Assembly: GCA_038087875.1 (NCBI GenBank)
Contig: CM075979.1
Location: 12,028,001-12,092,000 of the forward strand
DNA from: Malacoraja senta
Lineage: Eukaryota
Reading direction: 5' to 3'
Length of the DNA: 64,000 nt
Shown: positions 48,101-57,100 of the stretch, one piece after another
Numbering within the stretch: the stretch's first letter is position 1
Layout: every line of letters begins with the position of its first letter
Program-made: the position numbers

Positions 48101-51100
48101 ATGTCACAACATTTTGAGATTTTAAACATCAAGTCTGCAATTTATCCCATCAGATAAAGCATAAAAAGAAGTTTAATTTGACACCTAATTCACTTTCATA
48201 TCTTCAGTATTAAAAATGTTATGGCCATTTTCATACTCTGAAATTAGCATCTTGTTCCCTATTGCTTTTCCATTGACTTAACTCAAAAGCTGTGATCAAG
48301 GACAGTCAAAAGCCCATAACTCTCTTAAAAATTAAGAGAACAATGAAATGTTCAGTTATTATAGATTGAAGCATTCTGAAATAAATATGAAACAATCTTA
48401 CTTGGATGACCTACAATTAGTTACCTAATTGTAGCTAATTACAAAATTCAATTACTAGATCTAAACATCTATCCATTTCTTAAGAAAAGGTTAACATTTT
48501 TAAATAGCCTGTATCCAATTAACATTCACACAAGAATTCACAATATAACATGATTTTTAAATCTCATTGTCATGAATTTATAGGCCAAATGGAAGGAATT
48601 TAATGTTTAATTCCCGTAAATTAATGGGCATTTTAATCATCTTGTGAGTGGGGTTTTGTGGAACGCGATCGATTGGAACGTTGCGGTTGCAGTGAATTTG
48701 AATCCCATATCGGCAGGAAAAACACTGCCGGTTCGTATGGGGCCAAAATCACATTTTCGCCAATGAAATTTGGATTAAAGTCATCCTAAGAAGCAAGTTT
48801 ATATGTAAAATAAACGACTTACCTTATGTTTTGTCCCCTACGTGAGATCCGTCACGTTGTAAGCGTTGACGGCATTAGAAGTAGCTTTTTATTTTACTCC
48901 AGGGATTAAATTGTCCCTCGATATTTTTTTAACTTCCGAGAACGGAAGTCAGAACGATTTTTCTGCAGCAGCTGAACAACCTGAGAACGTTCGACTCCGA
49001 CAGGCAGGAGAAAACGGCATTTTAATCCCGCCTCCCCCCTCAAAGGCGCCAAAGTCAGTGGCAGAACTGCAGCGCCGCTGAAGGTAGGTATTGTAACATC
49101 GCTACCCTTTGGGTAGTTTGTATAGAATTTGGCTACTGCTCATAGGTGGTGGAGGGAATTCATATTTTATGGTGTGGAGGAGGTTCTGATCAGCGAGCTT
49201 CATTGTCCCAGACAGTGCTAAGCTTGTGAGTGTGTTGGAGCTGCATTCATTCATTCAGGCAAGTGGACAGTGTCCCATCACACTCCTGACTTGTGCCTTG
49301 TTGATGGTGAAAAGGCTTTGGGTTGTGTGTCAGTTGGACAGTTCTGACAGTTTGGCTGTTTGACTTTGGCAATTCTGGTCACCTCATGAAAGGAAGGATT
49401 ATAGAGGGTGCAGAAGATGCTTGCCAGGATGCTGACCGGATTAGAGAGCATAAACCGTAAGAAGAGACTGGACAAAACTTGGCTTGTTTTCTCTGGAGCG
49501 TCAGATGCTGAGAGGAGACCTGATAGATGTTTATGAAATTATGAGAGGCATAGACAGTTTAAAGCAGATGTGTGGAACAGGTTTCTTTTACACAGAGAGT
49601 GGTGGATGTCTGGAACGTGCTGCCATGGGTGGTGGTGGAGGCAGATACGATAGTGGCATTCAAGAGGTTTTTATGTGGATTTGTGGGTATGAAGGGATGT
49701 AAATCACATCAAGGCAGAGGAGATTCATTGAACCTGGCATCACATTCGGCACAGACATTGTGTGCAGAAGGGCCTGTTCCTGTGCGTTACAGTTTGTTTT
49801 TCATGCTCCATATGTGTGGAGATAAATCTTTGACCACAGGATCCCCAGCCTCTTTGACCAGCTCTCCTGGGCCAGTTTTTATGTGGCATGTGTATCTGCA
49901 TTTCTGATCAATGGTGAATTGTTAATTTCATTCTGAGATGTATACAATTTTTTGATTGCTCAAGAATATACAGGCGATTCTGTATTCTACCGCTCAGGTA
50001 GAAGGTAACTCGCCCTTAGAGGATTCACTAATCGGCACCGGAAAAATTTGAGACATGGTATAAAATAGTAAGATTAAACGAGAACTTACCAGTTTGAAGT
50101 TTGATCTGTATTTTATGAGGAGTTACGATGAGGGATTACGTGAAGAACCCGCTCAGTGCGCAGGCACGGCATACTTCCAAGCAGCGGTGTGGAATCACAG
50201 ATAGACACAGGTATTTGAAGTAAACATAGTAAAGAAAAGGAGACATCAATTTATTAGTTTGATCCATATAATGAGGGTGGGAGCGGAGGGCACGTAATCC
50301 CTCATCGTAACTCCTCATAAAATACAGATCAAACTTCAAACTGGTAAGTTCTCGTTTAATCTTACTATTTTACTTCGGAGTCACGTGAGTGACTTCGTGA
50401 AGATTTCAAAGCTCTGTGATTTCAAACCGTGTAACAGTTTTATTTCACTCACTGCCGAAAGTTCTTGAGGGAGGAAGTGTTATCGTAATCAACCAATGAA
50501 TCCGTTTCTCAAGAAACAAAAAAGGTATTTATTAACAATAACAAAATTAAATAGCTCCCCCGGGCTTTAAATTATATATTTGCAGCTTCTAATATTTTCT
50601 CTGCAAATAAATCTGGTTTCATCAACGGCTTATTATAAAAAGTTCTGAATGTCGTTTCCCTCGACCATCCTGCTGTATTCAGAATATGGTCAACCGGTAC
50701 GTCCATTCTTTCCGCCGTTGATGTAGATGCTGCCCTAGTGGAATGAGATTTAAATGTATTAGTATCTATTCCGGCAGCCTTCAGCACCTGTTTGAGCCAT
50801 CTTGCAATGGTTTGGCTCGTTACCCGGCCATGAGGTTTCTTGTGGCTGACCCATAAGGCTTTTTCACTCCCTCTGATAATGTGGGTTGTGTCTATATAAT
50901 GTTGTAGATGAGTCACGACACACAACCGTGGCTCTTGTGGGTAGGCCCGGAATACCACCAGTGGATTCGCTGTTCCTGGCCTGCTTTGCTTCACCAGACC
51001 CTGTATGATGAATGTGATCTGATCTGGGGTGGTCACCATGTTGTCCAGCCTTAACTGGTGTAGTGACTGAACCCTCTGAGCGGATACGAGTGCCATCAAC

Positions 51101-54100: not shown

Positions 54101-57100
54101 TGGTGCTGTGTACAGTTCAAGCGCCTCTAGCAGTACCTTCTCCTGCTAGGGCTTATTTGATAGATGATTTATGCTGGCTGCCATTTTTGGTTCCAGCGGT
54201 CTTCCAGCACGTGGGGTTGCTACATAGCGGTCCACGACACCCAGCAGCTCTTCCTGCTCCTGCACCCCTTGCATACCGCCGAATTCGTCCGCCAGCCCCT
54301 GTTCCAGACCAGCCCAACCCTGGTCGCCAATGCTAGCCTCCAGTAATGAGGGAGCAGAGGGCAGTGCACAAGACACTGTGGAGGAGGTGCCTGACCTACC
54401 TCCGCGGGAACGCTCCTTCTGCGCATCCCGCTGGAGCATCTGCTCCAAGAGCTGTTGTAAGCTCTGGCGGCTGTCTCTCCTCCGTTTCGGTGGAGACATG
54501 TCCCCCTCCGACGAATCAGAAATGACCGGCCGGATACTTTTCCTCATGGCTTTCCTCCCTGTCCGCTGTGCAGGCATTAGCGGGACTGGGCTCGGCTCGG
54601 TCTCGGGGATAGCGGAGCGCTCTATGAGCGTTCCTGCCGCCTGTTGCTGTCCCCCTGCGATTGAACGCTCCTCTGGTGGAGATGAGCTGGGGGCAGTTCT
54701 CTTCGAGAGTCTTTTCTTTTGTGAACTCATTTCGTAAGTACACGTCTTTAACTCTCCTTCTCCGTTAGATAACTTCAGCATACTTACCCAACGGTCCGTC
54801 TTTTAAACTGCAGCCGGAGAGCCTTCCTCCAGCTGCCGCCGCTGTTGCACTGCTGGCGTAATGCCGCGCCTGCGCACTGAGCGGGTTCTTCACGAAGTCA
54901 CTCACGTGACTCCGAAGTAAAATTTGCTAATATGAAGTGTATGTGAAATATAGAAAATAAACAGACATTTTTTTTCAAGTTACGTTTCTTGACATATGGA
55001 CGTGTGTAATGGAAAATCGCGATTATAGACCGAGTAATTCCTCTTCCTGCTGTAAAGTGGGGTGATCTGTAAAGGAAAGCGGGAAAAGATTGATATAAAA
55101 ACGACAAAGGAAAAGAAAATAATGTCCACATAATGTCAGGACTTCAGTGGTACACCGAGCGGCGCTAGTAATGGCTGCCTCGCCAACAGTCTGTCCCTTC
55201 CTTCTTTTGTTGTTTGTTTGTATGTGTTAAATGTCTGTTTTAATGTTCTTTAGCTTATTTTATGTGGGGGGAGGGGGTTGGGGGAAACTTTTTCGAATCT
55301 CTTACCTCGACGGAGATGTGATTTTTTTTCCGTAACGTATCTCCGTCCGCACTGCGGCCTAACATCGAGGAGTTGGTGACCTTTGCTGGAGACCGACTTC
55401 GAGAGCTCCACCGCGGGGAGCCTGCGGATTTAACATCACGGAACTGGCGATCCCTTTGCCAGGCATCGGCCTCTGAGCTGTACCGCGGGAGCCTGCGGAC
55501 GTTTAACATCGCGGAGCTCTCGGTCTCTGGTCAGAGACCGACTTCGGGAACTCCGAGCCGCATGAGCTTCGACCCCTCTGATGCGGGAACTTCGATCGCC
55601 CCGACGCAGGGGCTTCGATCGCTGGCTGCGGGAGGTTTGATCGTCCCCACTGTGGATGGTTCCACTGCCCCGACCGCGGGAGAATAAAGAGGAAGAAGAA
55701 TGGACTTTATTGCCTTCCATCACAGTGAGGAACGTGGGGAACGCGCTGTGGCGGATGTTTATGTTAACTTTTATGTAGTTGTGTGTCTTGTTGCTTTTTT
55801 TTTTAGTATGGCTGTTTGGTAATTCGAATTTCACTGTACCTTAATTGGTACATGTGACAATAAGCTGACCTGAAACCTTGACTTCTGATACATTGCACAG
55901 AGGTGGTGACTGAGATTCATCAGATGGCTTCCTATAAAAGGTCAGCATTGAGTCAGGAACACTGGTGTAATAACGTAAATGTCAGGTATAAATAATTCTG
56001 GTCTCGACAATCGAAAAACGTATCGTAGCATTTGAAGGAATACCAAATGATCAGATAATGAGAAACAATCGTGTAAGTTGGAGCTGTACAGCACGGAAAC
56101 AGGCCCTTTTGCCAACCTTGCCCATGCTGACTATGTCAACATATTGGGCTAGTCCCATTTGCCTGCATTTCAGCTGCCAGAGGAAGCTAGAGAGGTGGAT
56201 ACAATTACGTCTTTTGAAAGACATTTGGACAGATATACAGATAGGAAGGTTTTCGAGGGCCATGGGCTAAATGCAGGCAAATGGGCCTAGACCAGTATGC
56301 CATCTTGGTTGGCAAAAACAAGTTAGATTGATAATCTTGTTTCCATGTTTTTTGCTCTGTGTCTCTATGGGAAACTGTGTTTTAAGTAGTAGGGTGGGGG
56401 AAGGACGGAGAGAGCATTGTTGTCAGGTGATACAGAGCTCTTGTTACATCTGGATGGACGAAGATCATTAAAAGGGAACAAAAAGTACTTGGCAGAACTG
56501 TGAAGATGCAGATGATTCCCTCAAATCTGGCAGATCCGAAGCACAAGTTCCCACAGCTGCTGCCGACGCTACTGAGTATTTCCAGCACCTTCTGTTCTTA
56601 TTTCCAACAACTGCAGTATTTTTTATTTTCAACCAGAGGGCAAGGCATTTCCTGGGGCAGACATACAAATCGCAGTGTTGAGGTCATTGAGTCAGTGAGA
56701 GGTCGCACCATGAACAGGTTGATGGTGGAGACACTGGAGGAAGAATCTGGTGATTCCTTCAAATGTAAATGGAAATTTCATCCAGGAAGTAAGAAATCCA
56801 GAACCAGGGGTCGCAGTCTTAGAATAATGGGGAGGCCATTTAAGACTGAGGTGAGAAAAAACGTTTTCACCCAGAGAGTTGTGAACTTGTGGAATTCCCT
56901 GCCACAGAGGGCAGTGGAGGCCAAATCACTGGATGGATTTAAGAGAGAGTTGGATAGAGCTCTAAGGGCTAGTGGAATCAAGGGATATGGGGAGAAGGCA
57001 GGCACGGGTTATTGATTGGGGACGATCAGCCATGATCACAATGAATGGCGGTGCTGGCTCGAAGGGCCGAATGGTCTCCTCCTGCACCTATTTTCTATGT

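What the first reader, a model, noticed from the sequence alone, without database searches (positions are those of the whole stretch)
50061..54923. Structurally complete, very young DIRS1 retrotransposon in a probable chondrichthyan genome
Seen: ICR matches of 82/82 and 37/37, ITR match of 33/34, uninterrupted 674-aa pol and 327-aa YR frames with all catalytic residues, and one gag stop as the only visible lesion. Established: the ITR + ICR architecture with gag/RT-RH-MT/YR defines DIRS1 elements, which are thought to integrate through a circular intermediate. Inference: recent insertion from a possibly active family. It is compact (4.9 kb), with short ITRs and only 13 nt of pol/YR overlap.
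Basis: partly seen in the sequence, partly recalled or inferred. Interest (0 to 1): 0.75.

Follow-up and report, generated by a model that had tools for sequence, protein, structure and literature searches.

The report
Near-intact DIRS1-like retrotransposon copy
This is one well-preserved copy of a DIRS1-type jumping gene, an ordinary kind of mobile DNA in fishes, with all its typical end structures and one broken gene; how recently it inserted cannot be fixed from this window.

Summary
On the minus strand, window 50061-54923 (4863 nt) carries three frames. The gag frame has 433 codons and one in-frame stop. The pol frame has 674 codons: RT, RNase H and a methyltransferase-like domain. The tyrosine recombinase (YR) frame has 327 codons. 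The ends are imperfect inverted terminal repeats (48/63 overall, inner 33/34), with a 49-nt right extension. A 113-nt internal complementary region (ICR) matches both ends perfectly (82/82 and 37/37, overlapping by 6 nt). All defining features of DIRS1-like elements that I could test were met. RT, RNase H and YR catalytic residues are present.

The closest named relative is a little skate (Leucoraja erinacea) gene model, 85% identical over pol and 81% over YR. The best unnamed relatives are 73-74% identical.

"Very young" and "active family" are only partly supported. The perfect ICR matches bound pair divergence below 2.5% (95%). Frame intactness suggests roughly 0.1-1.1% substitution. CpG content is little depleted. 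Absolute age, copy number and polymorphism could not be tested, because the source assembly was not available.

The YR frame has no ATG ahead of its conserved N-terminal segment. The termini resemble mollusc DIRS1 elements more than tabulated bony-vertebrate ones.

Verdict: a new member of a known kind, of modest interest.

The parts
50061..54923 (-). Whole DIRS1-like element, 4863 nt. Each outer boundary is ambiguous by up to 6 nt because the same 6-mer lies at both ends.
   Evidence: repeats; frames and domains
54861..54923 (-). Left terminus, which is the left ITR (63 nt). The outer 'divergent' part is 54895-54923 (29 nt). The inner 'conserved' part is 54861-54894 (34 nt, 33/34 with the right ITR). 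No left extension. The element starts with ATT.
53480..54781 (-). gag frame: 433 sense codons, broken by one in-frame stop, no frameshift. The N-terminal half is low-complexity. A conserved helical domain lies in the C-terminal half. A second ATG 17 codons into the frame aligns with the start of relative P0242.
   Evidence: No Pfam family. No PDB fold match.
51543..53567 (-). pol frame, 674 aa, uninterrupted. It holds RT (about residues 90-300, YLDD), RNase H (about 410-530, D-E-D-D) and a methyltransferase-like domain (about 530-674, invariant DLFAS and FPPF). It lies in the -1 frame relative to gag and overlaps gag by 88 nt.
50572..51555 (-). Tyrosine recombinase frame, 327 codons from a TTG, uninterrupted. 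It has an N-terminal SAM-like domain and a catalytic domain with R-K-H-R-W-Y. It lies in the -1 frame relative to pol, with a 13-nt mechanical overlap. No ATG precedes the conserved N-terminal segment.
50291..50403 (-). Internal complementary region, 113 nt. The left ICR is 50367-50403 (37/37 with the outer 37 nt of the left terminus). The right ICR is 50291-50372 (82/82 with the outer 82 nt of the right terminus). The two halves overlap by 6 nt, which is the circular junction.
   Evidence: 82-bp stem, -114.5 kcal/mol, z = -21.5.
50173..50290 (-). 118-nt spacer between the right ICR and the right ITR.
50061..50172 (-). Right terminus, 112 nt. The right ITR is 50110-50172 (conserved part 50139-50172, divergent part 50110-50138). 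The right extension is 50061-50109 (49 nt), complementary to the ICR only.

Best explanation
This is one genomic copy of a DIRS1-like retrotransposon (DIRS order, the tyrosine-recombinase retrotransposons), lying on the minus strand of a genome that is probably an elasmobranch's.

How such an element works is known from the Dictyostelium model, not shown here. An RNA lacking the outermost ends is made from the left terminus. The element's RT/RNase H copies it into single-stranded cDNA. The ICR anneals to both termini (here 37 nt and 82 nt). That templates the missing ends and brings them together at a short circular junction. After second-strand synthesis, the tyrosine recombinase recombines the junction with an identical short sequence in the target. 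The same short sequence then flanks the element on both sides (here ATT, within a shared 6-mer), and no target-site duplication arises.

Shown here: the full anatomy, intact pol and YR frames with their catalytic residues, and a gag frame broken once.

Inferred: the copy inserted recently relative to normal decay, with well under about 2.5% divergence. As it stands it cannot supply its own full-length Gag, so at most it would depend on proteins of sister copies.
For: Anatomy:
- ITRs, right extension and ICR are present, and the two ICR halves lie in the order left-then-right.
- This matches the published definition and Table 3 of PMC3266345.
- The ICR and right terminus fold into an 82-bp stem.

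Proteins:
- Pfam RVT_1 at E 3.5e-21 on pol. Phage_integrase at E 2.4e-9, with two SAM-like domain families also above their cut-offs, on YR.
- A pol profile hits the CaMV and Ty3 RT structures best.
- An AF2 model of pol 300-674 has pLDDT 94.5. Its best Foldseek PDB match is the PCIF1/CAPAM N6-adenosine methyltransferase (E 1.4e-6, prob 1.00), followed by RT/RNase H structures.
- Weak Pfam matches to Dam and PCIF1_WW fall on the last 154 residues of pol. Among the 45 aligned sequences (the window's piece and 44 relatives), 27 match Dam and 29 match PCIF1_WW.
- Catalytic residues are present.

gag is one gene in relatives:
- 1240 library proteins match the piece downstream of the stop.
- 44 aligned relatives have a median length of 433 aa, and 39 of 44 have at least 100 residues upstream of that piece.
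- P0242 matches both pieces collinearly.

Youth:
- 0/119 mismatches between ICR and termini, and only one disabling change in 4299 coding nt.
- CpG o/e is 0.59 against a median of 0.35 elsewhere, and about 1.0-1.1 in the non-coding head and tail.

Mechanism: PMC7192593 (abstract and sections 3 and 26).
Against: - No second copy or fragment lies in the window.
- No protein more than 74% identical over the full pol, or 73% over YR, was found among 5.8 billion clusters. An active, multi-copy family is therefore not shown.
- The MT-like domain of this copy is below Pfam's cut-offs (16 bits against 28-31). The 375-residue piece gives no Pfam hit at E <= 0.01. Its motif IV-like FPPF lacks the usual D/N/S (the canonical motif is recalled, not from a call).
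- The YR frame has no ATG ahead of a segment that 15 of 24 relatives include.
- The YR profile matches Cre only marginally (E 0.02). YR alone matches nothing in the PDB by sequence.
- The conserved 'gag' domain has no recognisable fold or family, so 'gag' is a positional label.
- Age in years depends on an unknown host mutation rate.
Confidence: 0.85

Rival explanations
1. The element is a true DIRS1-like copy but not young. It is an insertion many millions of years old that still looks intact because the host lineage mutates slowly, and the short ICR/terminus pairs are too small a clock.
For: The perfect matches cover only 119 paired positions. The 95% bound is 2.5% pair divergence, which is up to 25-63 My at 5e-10 to 2e-10 per site per year. 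The closest relatives found are only 73-85% identical. No sister copy lies within 64 kb.
Against: There is one disabling change in 4299 coding nt, with 4.6% of substitutions expected to give stops, which suggests about 0.1-1.1% substitution. CpG o/e is at the top of the window's range and about 1 in the non-coding ends.
Confidence: 0.15
2. The apparent intactness is partly an assembly effect. Reads from many copies may have been collapsed into one consensus-like sequence, so the locus does not represent a single real insertion.
For: The window comes from a gapped assembly, with two N runs at 7777-7976 and 19844-20445. Consensus-like collapse would give clean frames and perfect ICR matches.
Against: The sequence carries a stop in gag and an ITR mismatch. 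It joins unique-looking flanks on both sides, with no window repeat abutting either junction. There is no N run within or next to the element.
Confidence: 0.07
3. The copy is fully self-sufficient. The gag stop would be read through by design, and the YR would be made without an ATG, through a -1 shift from pol or a non-ATG start.
For: gag, pol and YR each lie in the -1 frame relative to the one before (coordinates). The pol/YR overlap is 13 nt. A skate gene model (P0117) carries RH-MT and YR in one protein.
Against: Relative P0242 matches both gag pieces collinearly (query 20-211 on its 2-188; the downstream piece on its 190-393), so it reads through as one ORF. 44 aligned relatives have a median length of 433 aa, equal to the whole frame here. 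No recoding signal was looked for or found. The start residues of predicted relatives may themselves be caller artefacts.
Confidence: 0.03
4. It is a host gene set derived from a DIRS element (a domesticated pol or recombinase) rather than a mobile element.
For: NCBI annotates related skate loci as ordinary 'uncharacterized protein' genes.
Against: Termini and ICR are kept perfectly complementary, which serves only the element's own replication. gag is broken while the ends are intact. No intron or exon structure is evident.
Confidence: 0.02

Closest known systems
Mollusc DIRS1-like elements LgDIRS1, LgDIRS3, AcaDIRS1 and AcaDIRS2 (Lottia gigantea, Aplysia californica; Table 3 of PMC3266345, read)
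   Same: Almost the same terminal plan. They start and end with ATT. Divergent ITR is 30-36 nt (here 29). Conserved ITR is 31-36 nt (here 34). Right extension is 48-49 nt (here 49). ICR halves are 39-45 and 86-88 nt (here 37 and 82). No long ORF overlap. Size is 4680-5808 nt (here 4863).
   Different: The host phylum differs. Protein similarity to these elements could not be measured, because no named sequences were available. The junction overlap is 6 nt here against 3 bp in the table.
Bony-vertebrate DIRS1-like elements (the fish DrDIRS1 group: GaDIRS1/2, TnDIRS1a; also XtDIRS2/3 and AcDIRS1/2; Table 3 and section 7 of PMC3266345)
   Same: Same superfamily features: gag, RT-RH-MT, YR, ITRs, right extension, ICR, and an NTT trinucleotide at the ends.
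   Different: Those elements have conserved ITRs of 102-148 nt, right extensions of 26-34 nt and right ICRs of 56-65 nt. They start with GTT, TTT or CTT, measure 5.3-6.2 kb, and 6 of 7 have long ORF overlaps. The window's element is shorter, with a 34-nt conserved ITR, a 49-nt extension, an 82-nt right ICR, an ATT start and no long overlap.
Leucoraja erinacea LOC129695449 (P0117) and LOC129708389 (P0153), NCBI 'uncharacterized protein' models
   Same: P0117 is 85% identical to pol 378-674 and 81% identical to YR 1-266. It is the closest named relative, evidently a copy of a sister family in a skate.
   Different: P0117 is a partial gene model that joins RH-MT and YR in one protein and lacks RT and the YR C-terminus. 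P0153 is a more distant lineage, 51% identical in YR. Their termini could not be seen.
DIRS-1 of Dictyostelium discoideum (founding member; PMC7192593 sections 3 and 26; Table 3 of PMC3266345)
   Same: Inverted non-identical terminal repeats, an ICR exactly complementary to both extremities (33 + 55 nt there, 37 + 82 nt here), RT/RH/MT and a YR. This is the replication model used above.
   Different: DIRS-1 has about 300-nt ITRs, and its YR frame overlaps pol extensively. Here YR follows pol with a 13-nt mechanical overlap.

Membership tests
DIRS order (tyrosine-recombinase retrotransposons) | Reverse transcriptase and RNase H of the LTR-retroelement type | tested here: met
   RVT_1 at E 3.5e-21. 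YLDD and the motif A Asp align with HIV-2 RT. The profile's best PDB hits are the CaMV and Ty3 RTs. RNase H D-E-D-D is 45/45.
DIRS order (tyrosine-recombinase retrotransposons) | A tyrosine recombinase in place of a DDE integrase | tested here: met
   Phage_integrase PF00589 at E 2.4e-9, above its cut-off, plus SAM-like N-terminal domains. R, K, R, W and Y are 25/25 and H is 24/25. No integrase family appears in any frame. The sequence match to solved recombinases is marginal only (Cre at E 0.02; none by single sequence).
DIRS1-like superfamily | Inverted terminal repeats with an inner conserved and an outer divergent part | tested here: met
   63-nt arms: 33/34 in the inner part and 15/29 in the outer part.
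DIRS1-like superfamily | Two adjacent internal complementary regions near the 3' end, complementary to the outer left and right termini and overlapping at a short circular junction | tested here: met
   37/37 and 82/82, in the order left ICR then right ICR, with a 6-nt overlap. The published overlap is 3 bp (PMC3266345).
DIRS1-like superfamily | A terminal extension complementary to the ICR only (right and/or left) | tested here: met
   The 49-nt right extension 50061-50109 lies outside the ITR alignment but inside the 82/82 match.
DIRS1-like superfamily | A methyltransferase domain after RNase H in pol | tested here: met
   Fold: the best PDB match of a pLDDT 94.5 model is the PCIF1/CAPAM N6-adenosine MTase, E 1.4e-6, prob 1.00. 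The global superposition is poor, however (TM 0.33, rmsd 25.8). Sequence: Dam at E 0.0084 and PCIF1_WW at E 0.0071, both below cut-off. 27 and 29 of the 45 aligned sequences match these families; 11 of the 44 relatives among them had been chosen because they carried PF05869.
DIRS1-like superfamily | Co-oriented domains in the order RT, MT, YR | tested here: met
   All lie on the minus strand: RT-RH-MT in 51543-53567, then YR in 50572-51555.
DIRS1-like superfamily | The same trinucleotide (usually NTT) at both ends, complementary to the junction, and no target-site duplication | tested here: inconclusive
   The element starts with ATT, and the same 6-mer (which begins with ATT in element orientation) lies at both ends and once in the ICR. 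Without an empty site, it cannot be told which copy or how many of the 6 nt come from the target.
DIRS1-like superfamily | pol groups with DIRS1-like elements in a phylogeny with named references | not testable with these tools
   No named DIRS1, PAT or Ngaro reference proteins could be fetched. The 1002 pol relatives with E <= 0.001 are almost all unnamed.
Ngaro / PAT-like / VIPER (other YR retrotransposons) | Split direct repeats (A1-B1 ... A2-B2) or SIRE-derived LTRs instead of ITR + ICR. Ngaro and VIPER lack the MT domain. | tested here: not met
   Only two short, imperfect direct-repeat pairs (20-21 nt) occur in 49000-56000, and none is at the ends. An MT-like domain is present.
Ty3/Gypsy LTR retrotransposons | Direct long terminal repeats, aspartic protease and DDE integrase | tested here: not met
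   No direct terminal repeats. No protease or integrase family appears in any of the four frames scanned.

The most novel reading that the evidence does not exclude
The element may represent a lineage of DIRS1-like retrotransposons in cartilaginous fishes that is not part of the bony-fish DrDIRS1 group. Its terminal plan is an ATT start, a 29/34-nt ITR, a 49-nt right extension and a 37+82-nt ICR. In the one published table this plan is seen in molluscs, and partly in Daphnia and Nematostella. That would point either to an old second lineage kept in chondrichthyans or to transfer among marine animals. The family could still be producing new insertions.
Probability: 0.2. Interest if true: 0.5.

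Novelty: new member of a known kind. Interest (0 to 1): 0.25.

Why it matters
DIRS elements are the least studied order of retrotransposons. Their replication model rests almost wholly on Dictyostelium DIRS-1. A copy with perfect ICR/terminus complementarity and intact pol and recombinase frames is a clean reference for annotating this family in cartilaginous-fish genomes.

It could also serve for asking whether DIRS1 lineages in early-branching vertebrates differ from those of bony fishes. In itself the element is a textbook example. DIRS elements are already recorded in chondrichthyans at superfamily level (PMC4350176, passages seen).

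Tried and rejected
I searched the two pieces apart instead.
- Upstream gag piece against longer proteins: nothing at E <= 0.001 among 2569 candidates. Pairwise comparison later showed real relatives, so that blank was a limit of the search.
- gag fold: the model of the downstream piece has pLDDT 75. 0 of 453 PDB matches reach E <= 0.001. Pfam finds nothing credible. Atlas neighbours are unnamed eukaryotic clusters. No capsid-like assignment is possible.
- YR against solved structures by single sequence: 0 hits.
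I did not pursue this by other means.
- Bacterial-type promoter and terminator scan of 50000-55000: not above shuffles (10 found vs 7.6 expected; 6 vs 4.5) and not relevant to a eukaryote.
- Rfam (0 matches) and tRNA scan (0 genes) of the window.
- Pfam on 10 other long ORFs of the window (one sub-threshold chance hit) and on 7 antisense or flanking ORFs (0 families). No host gene was found that could name the organism.
- Second copies: self-BLAST and tblastn of 390 fetched relatives found nothing outside 50061-54923.
- Rejected readings: LTR retrotransposon, Ngaro/PAT and Crypton (see the membership test).

Full report
**1. The observation**

The element lies on the minus strand. The repeat finder on 49000-56000 and a self-BLAST of 50061-54923 against the window give three inverted matches:
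- 50061-50142 with 50291-50372: 82 nt, 100%.
- 50367-50403 with 54887-54923: 37 nt, 100%.
- 50129-50172 with 54861-54904: 44 nt, 91%.

An ungapped alignment of the full arms (54861-54923 reverse-complemented against 50110-50172) has 48 of 63 identical columns. Perfect inverted matches of 37 and 82 nt are expected about 1e-15 and 1e-42 times by chance in 7 kb.

The ORF table shows pol at 51543-53567 (674 aa) and the recombinase frame at 50572-51555 (327 aa from a TTG), both uninterrupted. The gag frame is 53480-54781 and is interrupted once by an in-frame stop, with no frameshift. Across the three frames the count is one stop and no frameshifts.

**2. Anatomy in the published terms**

I use the terms of Piednoël et al. 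2011 (PMC3266345). I saw passages, sections 10, 7 and 9 and the abstract. Its supplementary annotation file could not be seen.

In element orientation the parts are:
- Left terminus, which is the left ITR: 54923-54861. The divergent part is 29 nt and the conserved part is 34 nt. There is no left extension.
- gag.
- pol.
- YR.
- Left ICR: 50403-50367.
- Right ICR: 50372-50291.
- A 118-nt spacer.
- Right ITR: 50172-50110.
- A 49-nt right extension: 50109-50061.

The two ICR halves overlap by 6 nt. The same 6-mer, which begins with ATT in element orientation, sits at both outer ends and once in the ICR. The paper describes a 3-bp junction and the same NTT trinucleotide (most often ATT) at both ends. 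[quoted passage not shown] The window fits this. It leaves open whether the junction is 3 or 6 nt, so each boundary is uncertain by up to 6 nt.

As single-stranded DNA, 50061-50403 folds into the 82-bp stem at -114.5 kcal/mol. The shuffle mean is -30.1, z = -21.5, and 0 of 100 shuffles fold as well.

**3. Proteins**

*pol.* RVT_1 scores E 3.5e-21. The motif A Asp and YLDD align with HIV-2 RT. A profile of the window's pol piece and 44 relatives hits the CaMV RT (8r0s), Ty3 RT (4ol8, 7q5b) and retroviral RTs. The RNase H D, E, D, D columns are invariant in 45 of 45 sequences.

*The last part of pol.* This copy's final 154 residues give only sub-threshold Pfam matches: Dam PF05869 at E 0.0084 (16.2 bits against a cut-off of 28.1) and PCIF1_WW PF12237 at E 0.0071. 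The 375-residue piece gives none at E <= 0.01. Of the 45 aligned sequences, 27 match Dam and 29 match PCIF1_WW. Eleven of the 44 relatives had been picked because they carried PF05869, so these shares are inflated.

An AlphaFold2 model of pol 300-674 has mean pLDDT 94.5. Its best Foldseek match in the PDB is the cap-specific adenosine N6-methyltransferase PCIF1/CAPAM (6iry, E 1.4e-6, prob 1.00). The multi-domain superposition is poor (TM 0.33, rmsd 25.8). RT/RNase H structures follow. I therefore take the RT-RH-MT order as met. One caveat: the motif IV-like FPPF, invariant in 45/45, lacks the usual first D/N/S. That canonical motif is recalled, not from a call.

*YR.* Phage_integrase scores E 2.4e-9, and two SAM-like domain families score above their cut-offs. 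In an alignment with 24 relatives, R161, K189, R274, W297 and Y307 are 25/25 and H271 is 24/25. The profile matches Cre only marginally (E 0.02, over the H-x-x-R ... W segment). The single sequence matches nothing in the PDB.

The 13-nt pol/YR overlap is that of the mechanical TTG-started ORF. No ATG precedes an N-terminal segment that 15 of 24 relatives include. The start residues of predicted relatives may be artefacts of the gene caller, so I cannot say whether this is a defect or the family's normal state.

*gag.* The piece downstream of the stop matches 1240 library proteins at E <= 0.001, 222 at 1e-10 and 12 at 1e-30. In most of the best hits the match starts 200-290 residues into a protein of 400-500 aa. 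Forty-four aligned relatives have a median length of 433 aa, the same as the whole frame here, and 39 of 44 have at least 100 residues upstream. P0242 (403 aa) matches the upstream piece at 49% (E 5e-41) and the downstream piece at 60%, collinearly. P0241 behaves likewise. P0245 gives only a weak match to the upstream piece (38% over 34 residues, E 1e-4). So gag is one gene in relatives, and the stop is a real break.

The conserved domain is helical. It has no Pfam family, no PDB fold match (0 of 453 at E <= 0.001) and only unnamed Atlas neighbours. 'gag' is therefore a positional label, as in the literature.

**4. Relatives and host**

The best pol relative is P0001 (74% over 96% of the query; unnamed), followed by P0002 (63%). 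The best YR relative is P0121 (73%; unnamed).

The closest named protein is P0117, 'uncharacterized protein LOC129695449 [Leucoraja erinacea]'. It is 85% identical to pol 378-674 and 81% identical to YR 1-266, in one model. A second skate model, P0153, is 51% identical in YR. This fits an elasmobranch host but does not name it.

No host gene was recognised in the window. Cluster membership could not be looked up. Nothing in the window was taken for human. DIRS elements are reported absent from mammals (PMC4350176, passages; PMC3266345, section 9). No spliced gene model was needed.

**5. Age**

With 0 mismatches in 119 paired positions, the 95% bound on pair divergence is 2.5%. That is about 6, 13, 25 or 63 My at assumed rates of 2e-9, 1e-9, 5e-10 or 2e-10 per site per year.

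In these frames 4.6% of single-base substitutions would give a stop. With an assumed indel share of 5-20%, one disabling change in 4299 nt corresponds to about 0.1-0.24% substitution, with upper bounds of 0.45-1.15%. The stop may also have been inherited from the source copy, since DIRS-1 RT acts in trans in Dictyostelium (a section heading seen; that section was not read).

CpG o/e is 0.594 for the element. The median of 40 same-size windows elsewhere is 0.35 (range 0.30-0.595). The non-coding head and tail give 1.12 and 1.02, from 13 and 19 CpGs.

All of this points to little decay. It does not establish 'very young' in years, and it does not show an active family. There is no sister copy or fragment in the window and no near-identical protein in the searched collections.

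**6. How it works**

The model is that of Cappello et al. and of Poulter and Goodwin, as summarised and tested by Malicki et al. 2020 (PMC7192593; abstract; sections 3 and 26). Its steps are:
1. A sub-genomic RNA lacking the outer ends is made.
2. It is copied into single-stranded, mostly linear cDNA.
3. The ICR anneals to both termini, restores the ends and defines the junction.
4. The recombinase integrates the double-stranded form at a matching short sequence.

In Dictyostelium the ICR is essential for this cycle.

Shown here: only the anatomy that this model needs. Inferred: that this family uses it.

**7. Comparison and novelty**

The size (4863 nt) lies within the published 3974-6283 nt. 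The 63-nt ITR is just under the shortest tabulated (66 nt, LgDIRS1).

The terminal plan nearly coincides with four mollusc elements (AcaDIRS1/2, LgDIRS1/3). Those have a divergent ITR of 30-36 nt, a conserved ITR of 31-36 nt, an extension of 48-49 nt and ICR halves of 39-45 and 86-88 nt. They start with ATT and have no long overlap. In extension and ICR lengths the plan also resembles DpuDIRS3 and NveDIRS6b.

The seven tabulated bony-vertebrate elements differ. They have conserved ITRs of 102-148 nt, extensions of 26-34 nt and right ICRs of 56-65 nt. Whether this reflects a separate lineage could not be tested without named sequences.

DIRS elements in chondrichthyans are already recorded at superfamily level (PMC4350176). 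Four searches of the held library (listings only) showed no paper whose title or abstract describes the structure of a chondrichthyan DIRS1 element. Piednoël et al. do not mention Chondrichthyes or Callorhinchus (0 occurrences).

Verdict: an ordinary, unusually well-preserved new member of a known kind.

Noticed in passing
56793-57109, 60951-61266, 15899-16211, 45839-46151 (-), 2812-3113 (-), partial 38339-38551: An interspersed repeat of about 315 nt with five full copies about 80% alike (mean column identity 88% in the alignment) and a conserved 3' part. It has no tRNA-like head and no Rfam match. From memory it resembles the SINE/LINE tails common in elasmobranch genomes; I did not test this.
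   Followed up: partly
47866-48062, with more than 20 partial matches across the window: A repeat of about 200 nt that matches many places in the window in both orientations at 68-89% identity. This suggests a short, partly palindromic interspersed element.
   Followed up: no
22724-23065; 37579-37811; 55380-55515: Tandem arrays: a 17-nt unit in 20 copies (90% matches), a 128-nt unit in 1.8 copies, and a 73-nt unit in 1.9 copies lying about 450 nt beyond the element's 5' end.
   Followed up: no
34001-38000: Strong negative GC skew (-0.35 and -0.30 in two successive 2-kb windows), flanked by positive skew. Unexplained.
   Followed up: no
7777-7976 and 19844-20445: Two N runs of 200 and 602 nt (assembly gaps). 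I left them alone. ORFs listed across the second run are artefacts of the Ns.
   Followed up: no
50373-50403 and its complement in the left terminus, 54887-54917: The outer part of the left terminus, and therefore the left ICR, holds a small hairpin of its own (about 12 predicted pairs around a 4-nt loop in the DNA fold). It could be a protein-binding or priming site.
   Followed up: no
pol residues 558-562 and 598-601 (within 51543-53567, minus strand): In the methyltransferase-like domain, DLFAS is nearly invariant and FPPF is invariant in 45 of 45 aligned sequences. The first residue of the motif IV-like tetrad is Phe, not the usual D/N/S. The domain may therefore not be a conventional N6-adenine methyltransferase.
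   Followed up: partly
50572-54781 (minus strand): gag, pol and YR each lie in the -1 frame relative to the frame before. The overlaps are 88 nt (gag/pol) and 13 nt (pol/YR, mechanical). The skate model P0117 carries RH-MT and YR in one protein.
   Followed up: partly
53480-54781 (minus strand): The conserved C-terminal domain of the DIRS 'gag' is a helical bundle with no Pfam family, no significant PDB fold match and only unnamed Atlas neighbours. More than 1200 library proteins share it.
   Followed up: yes
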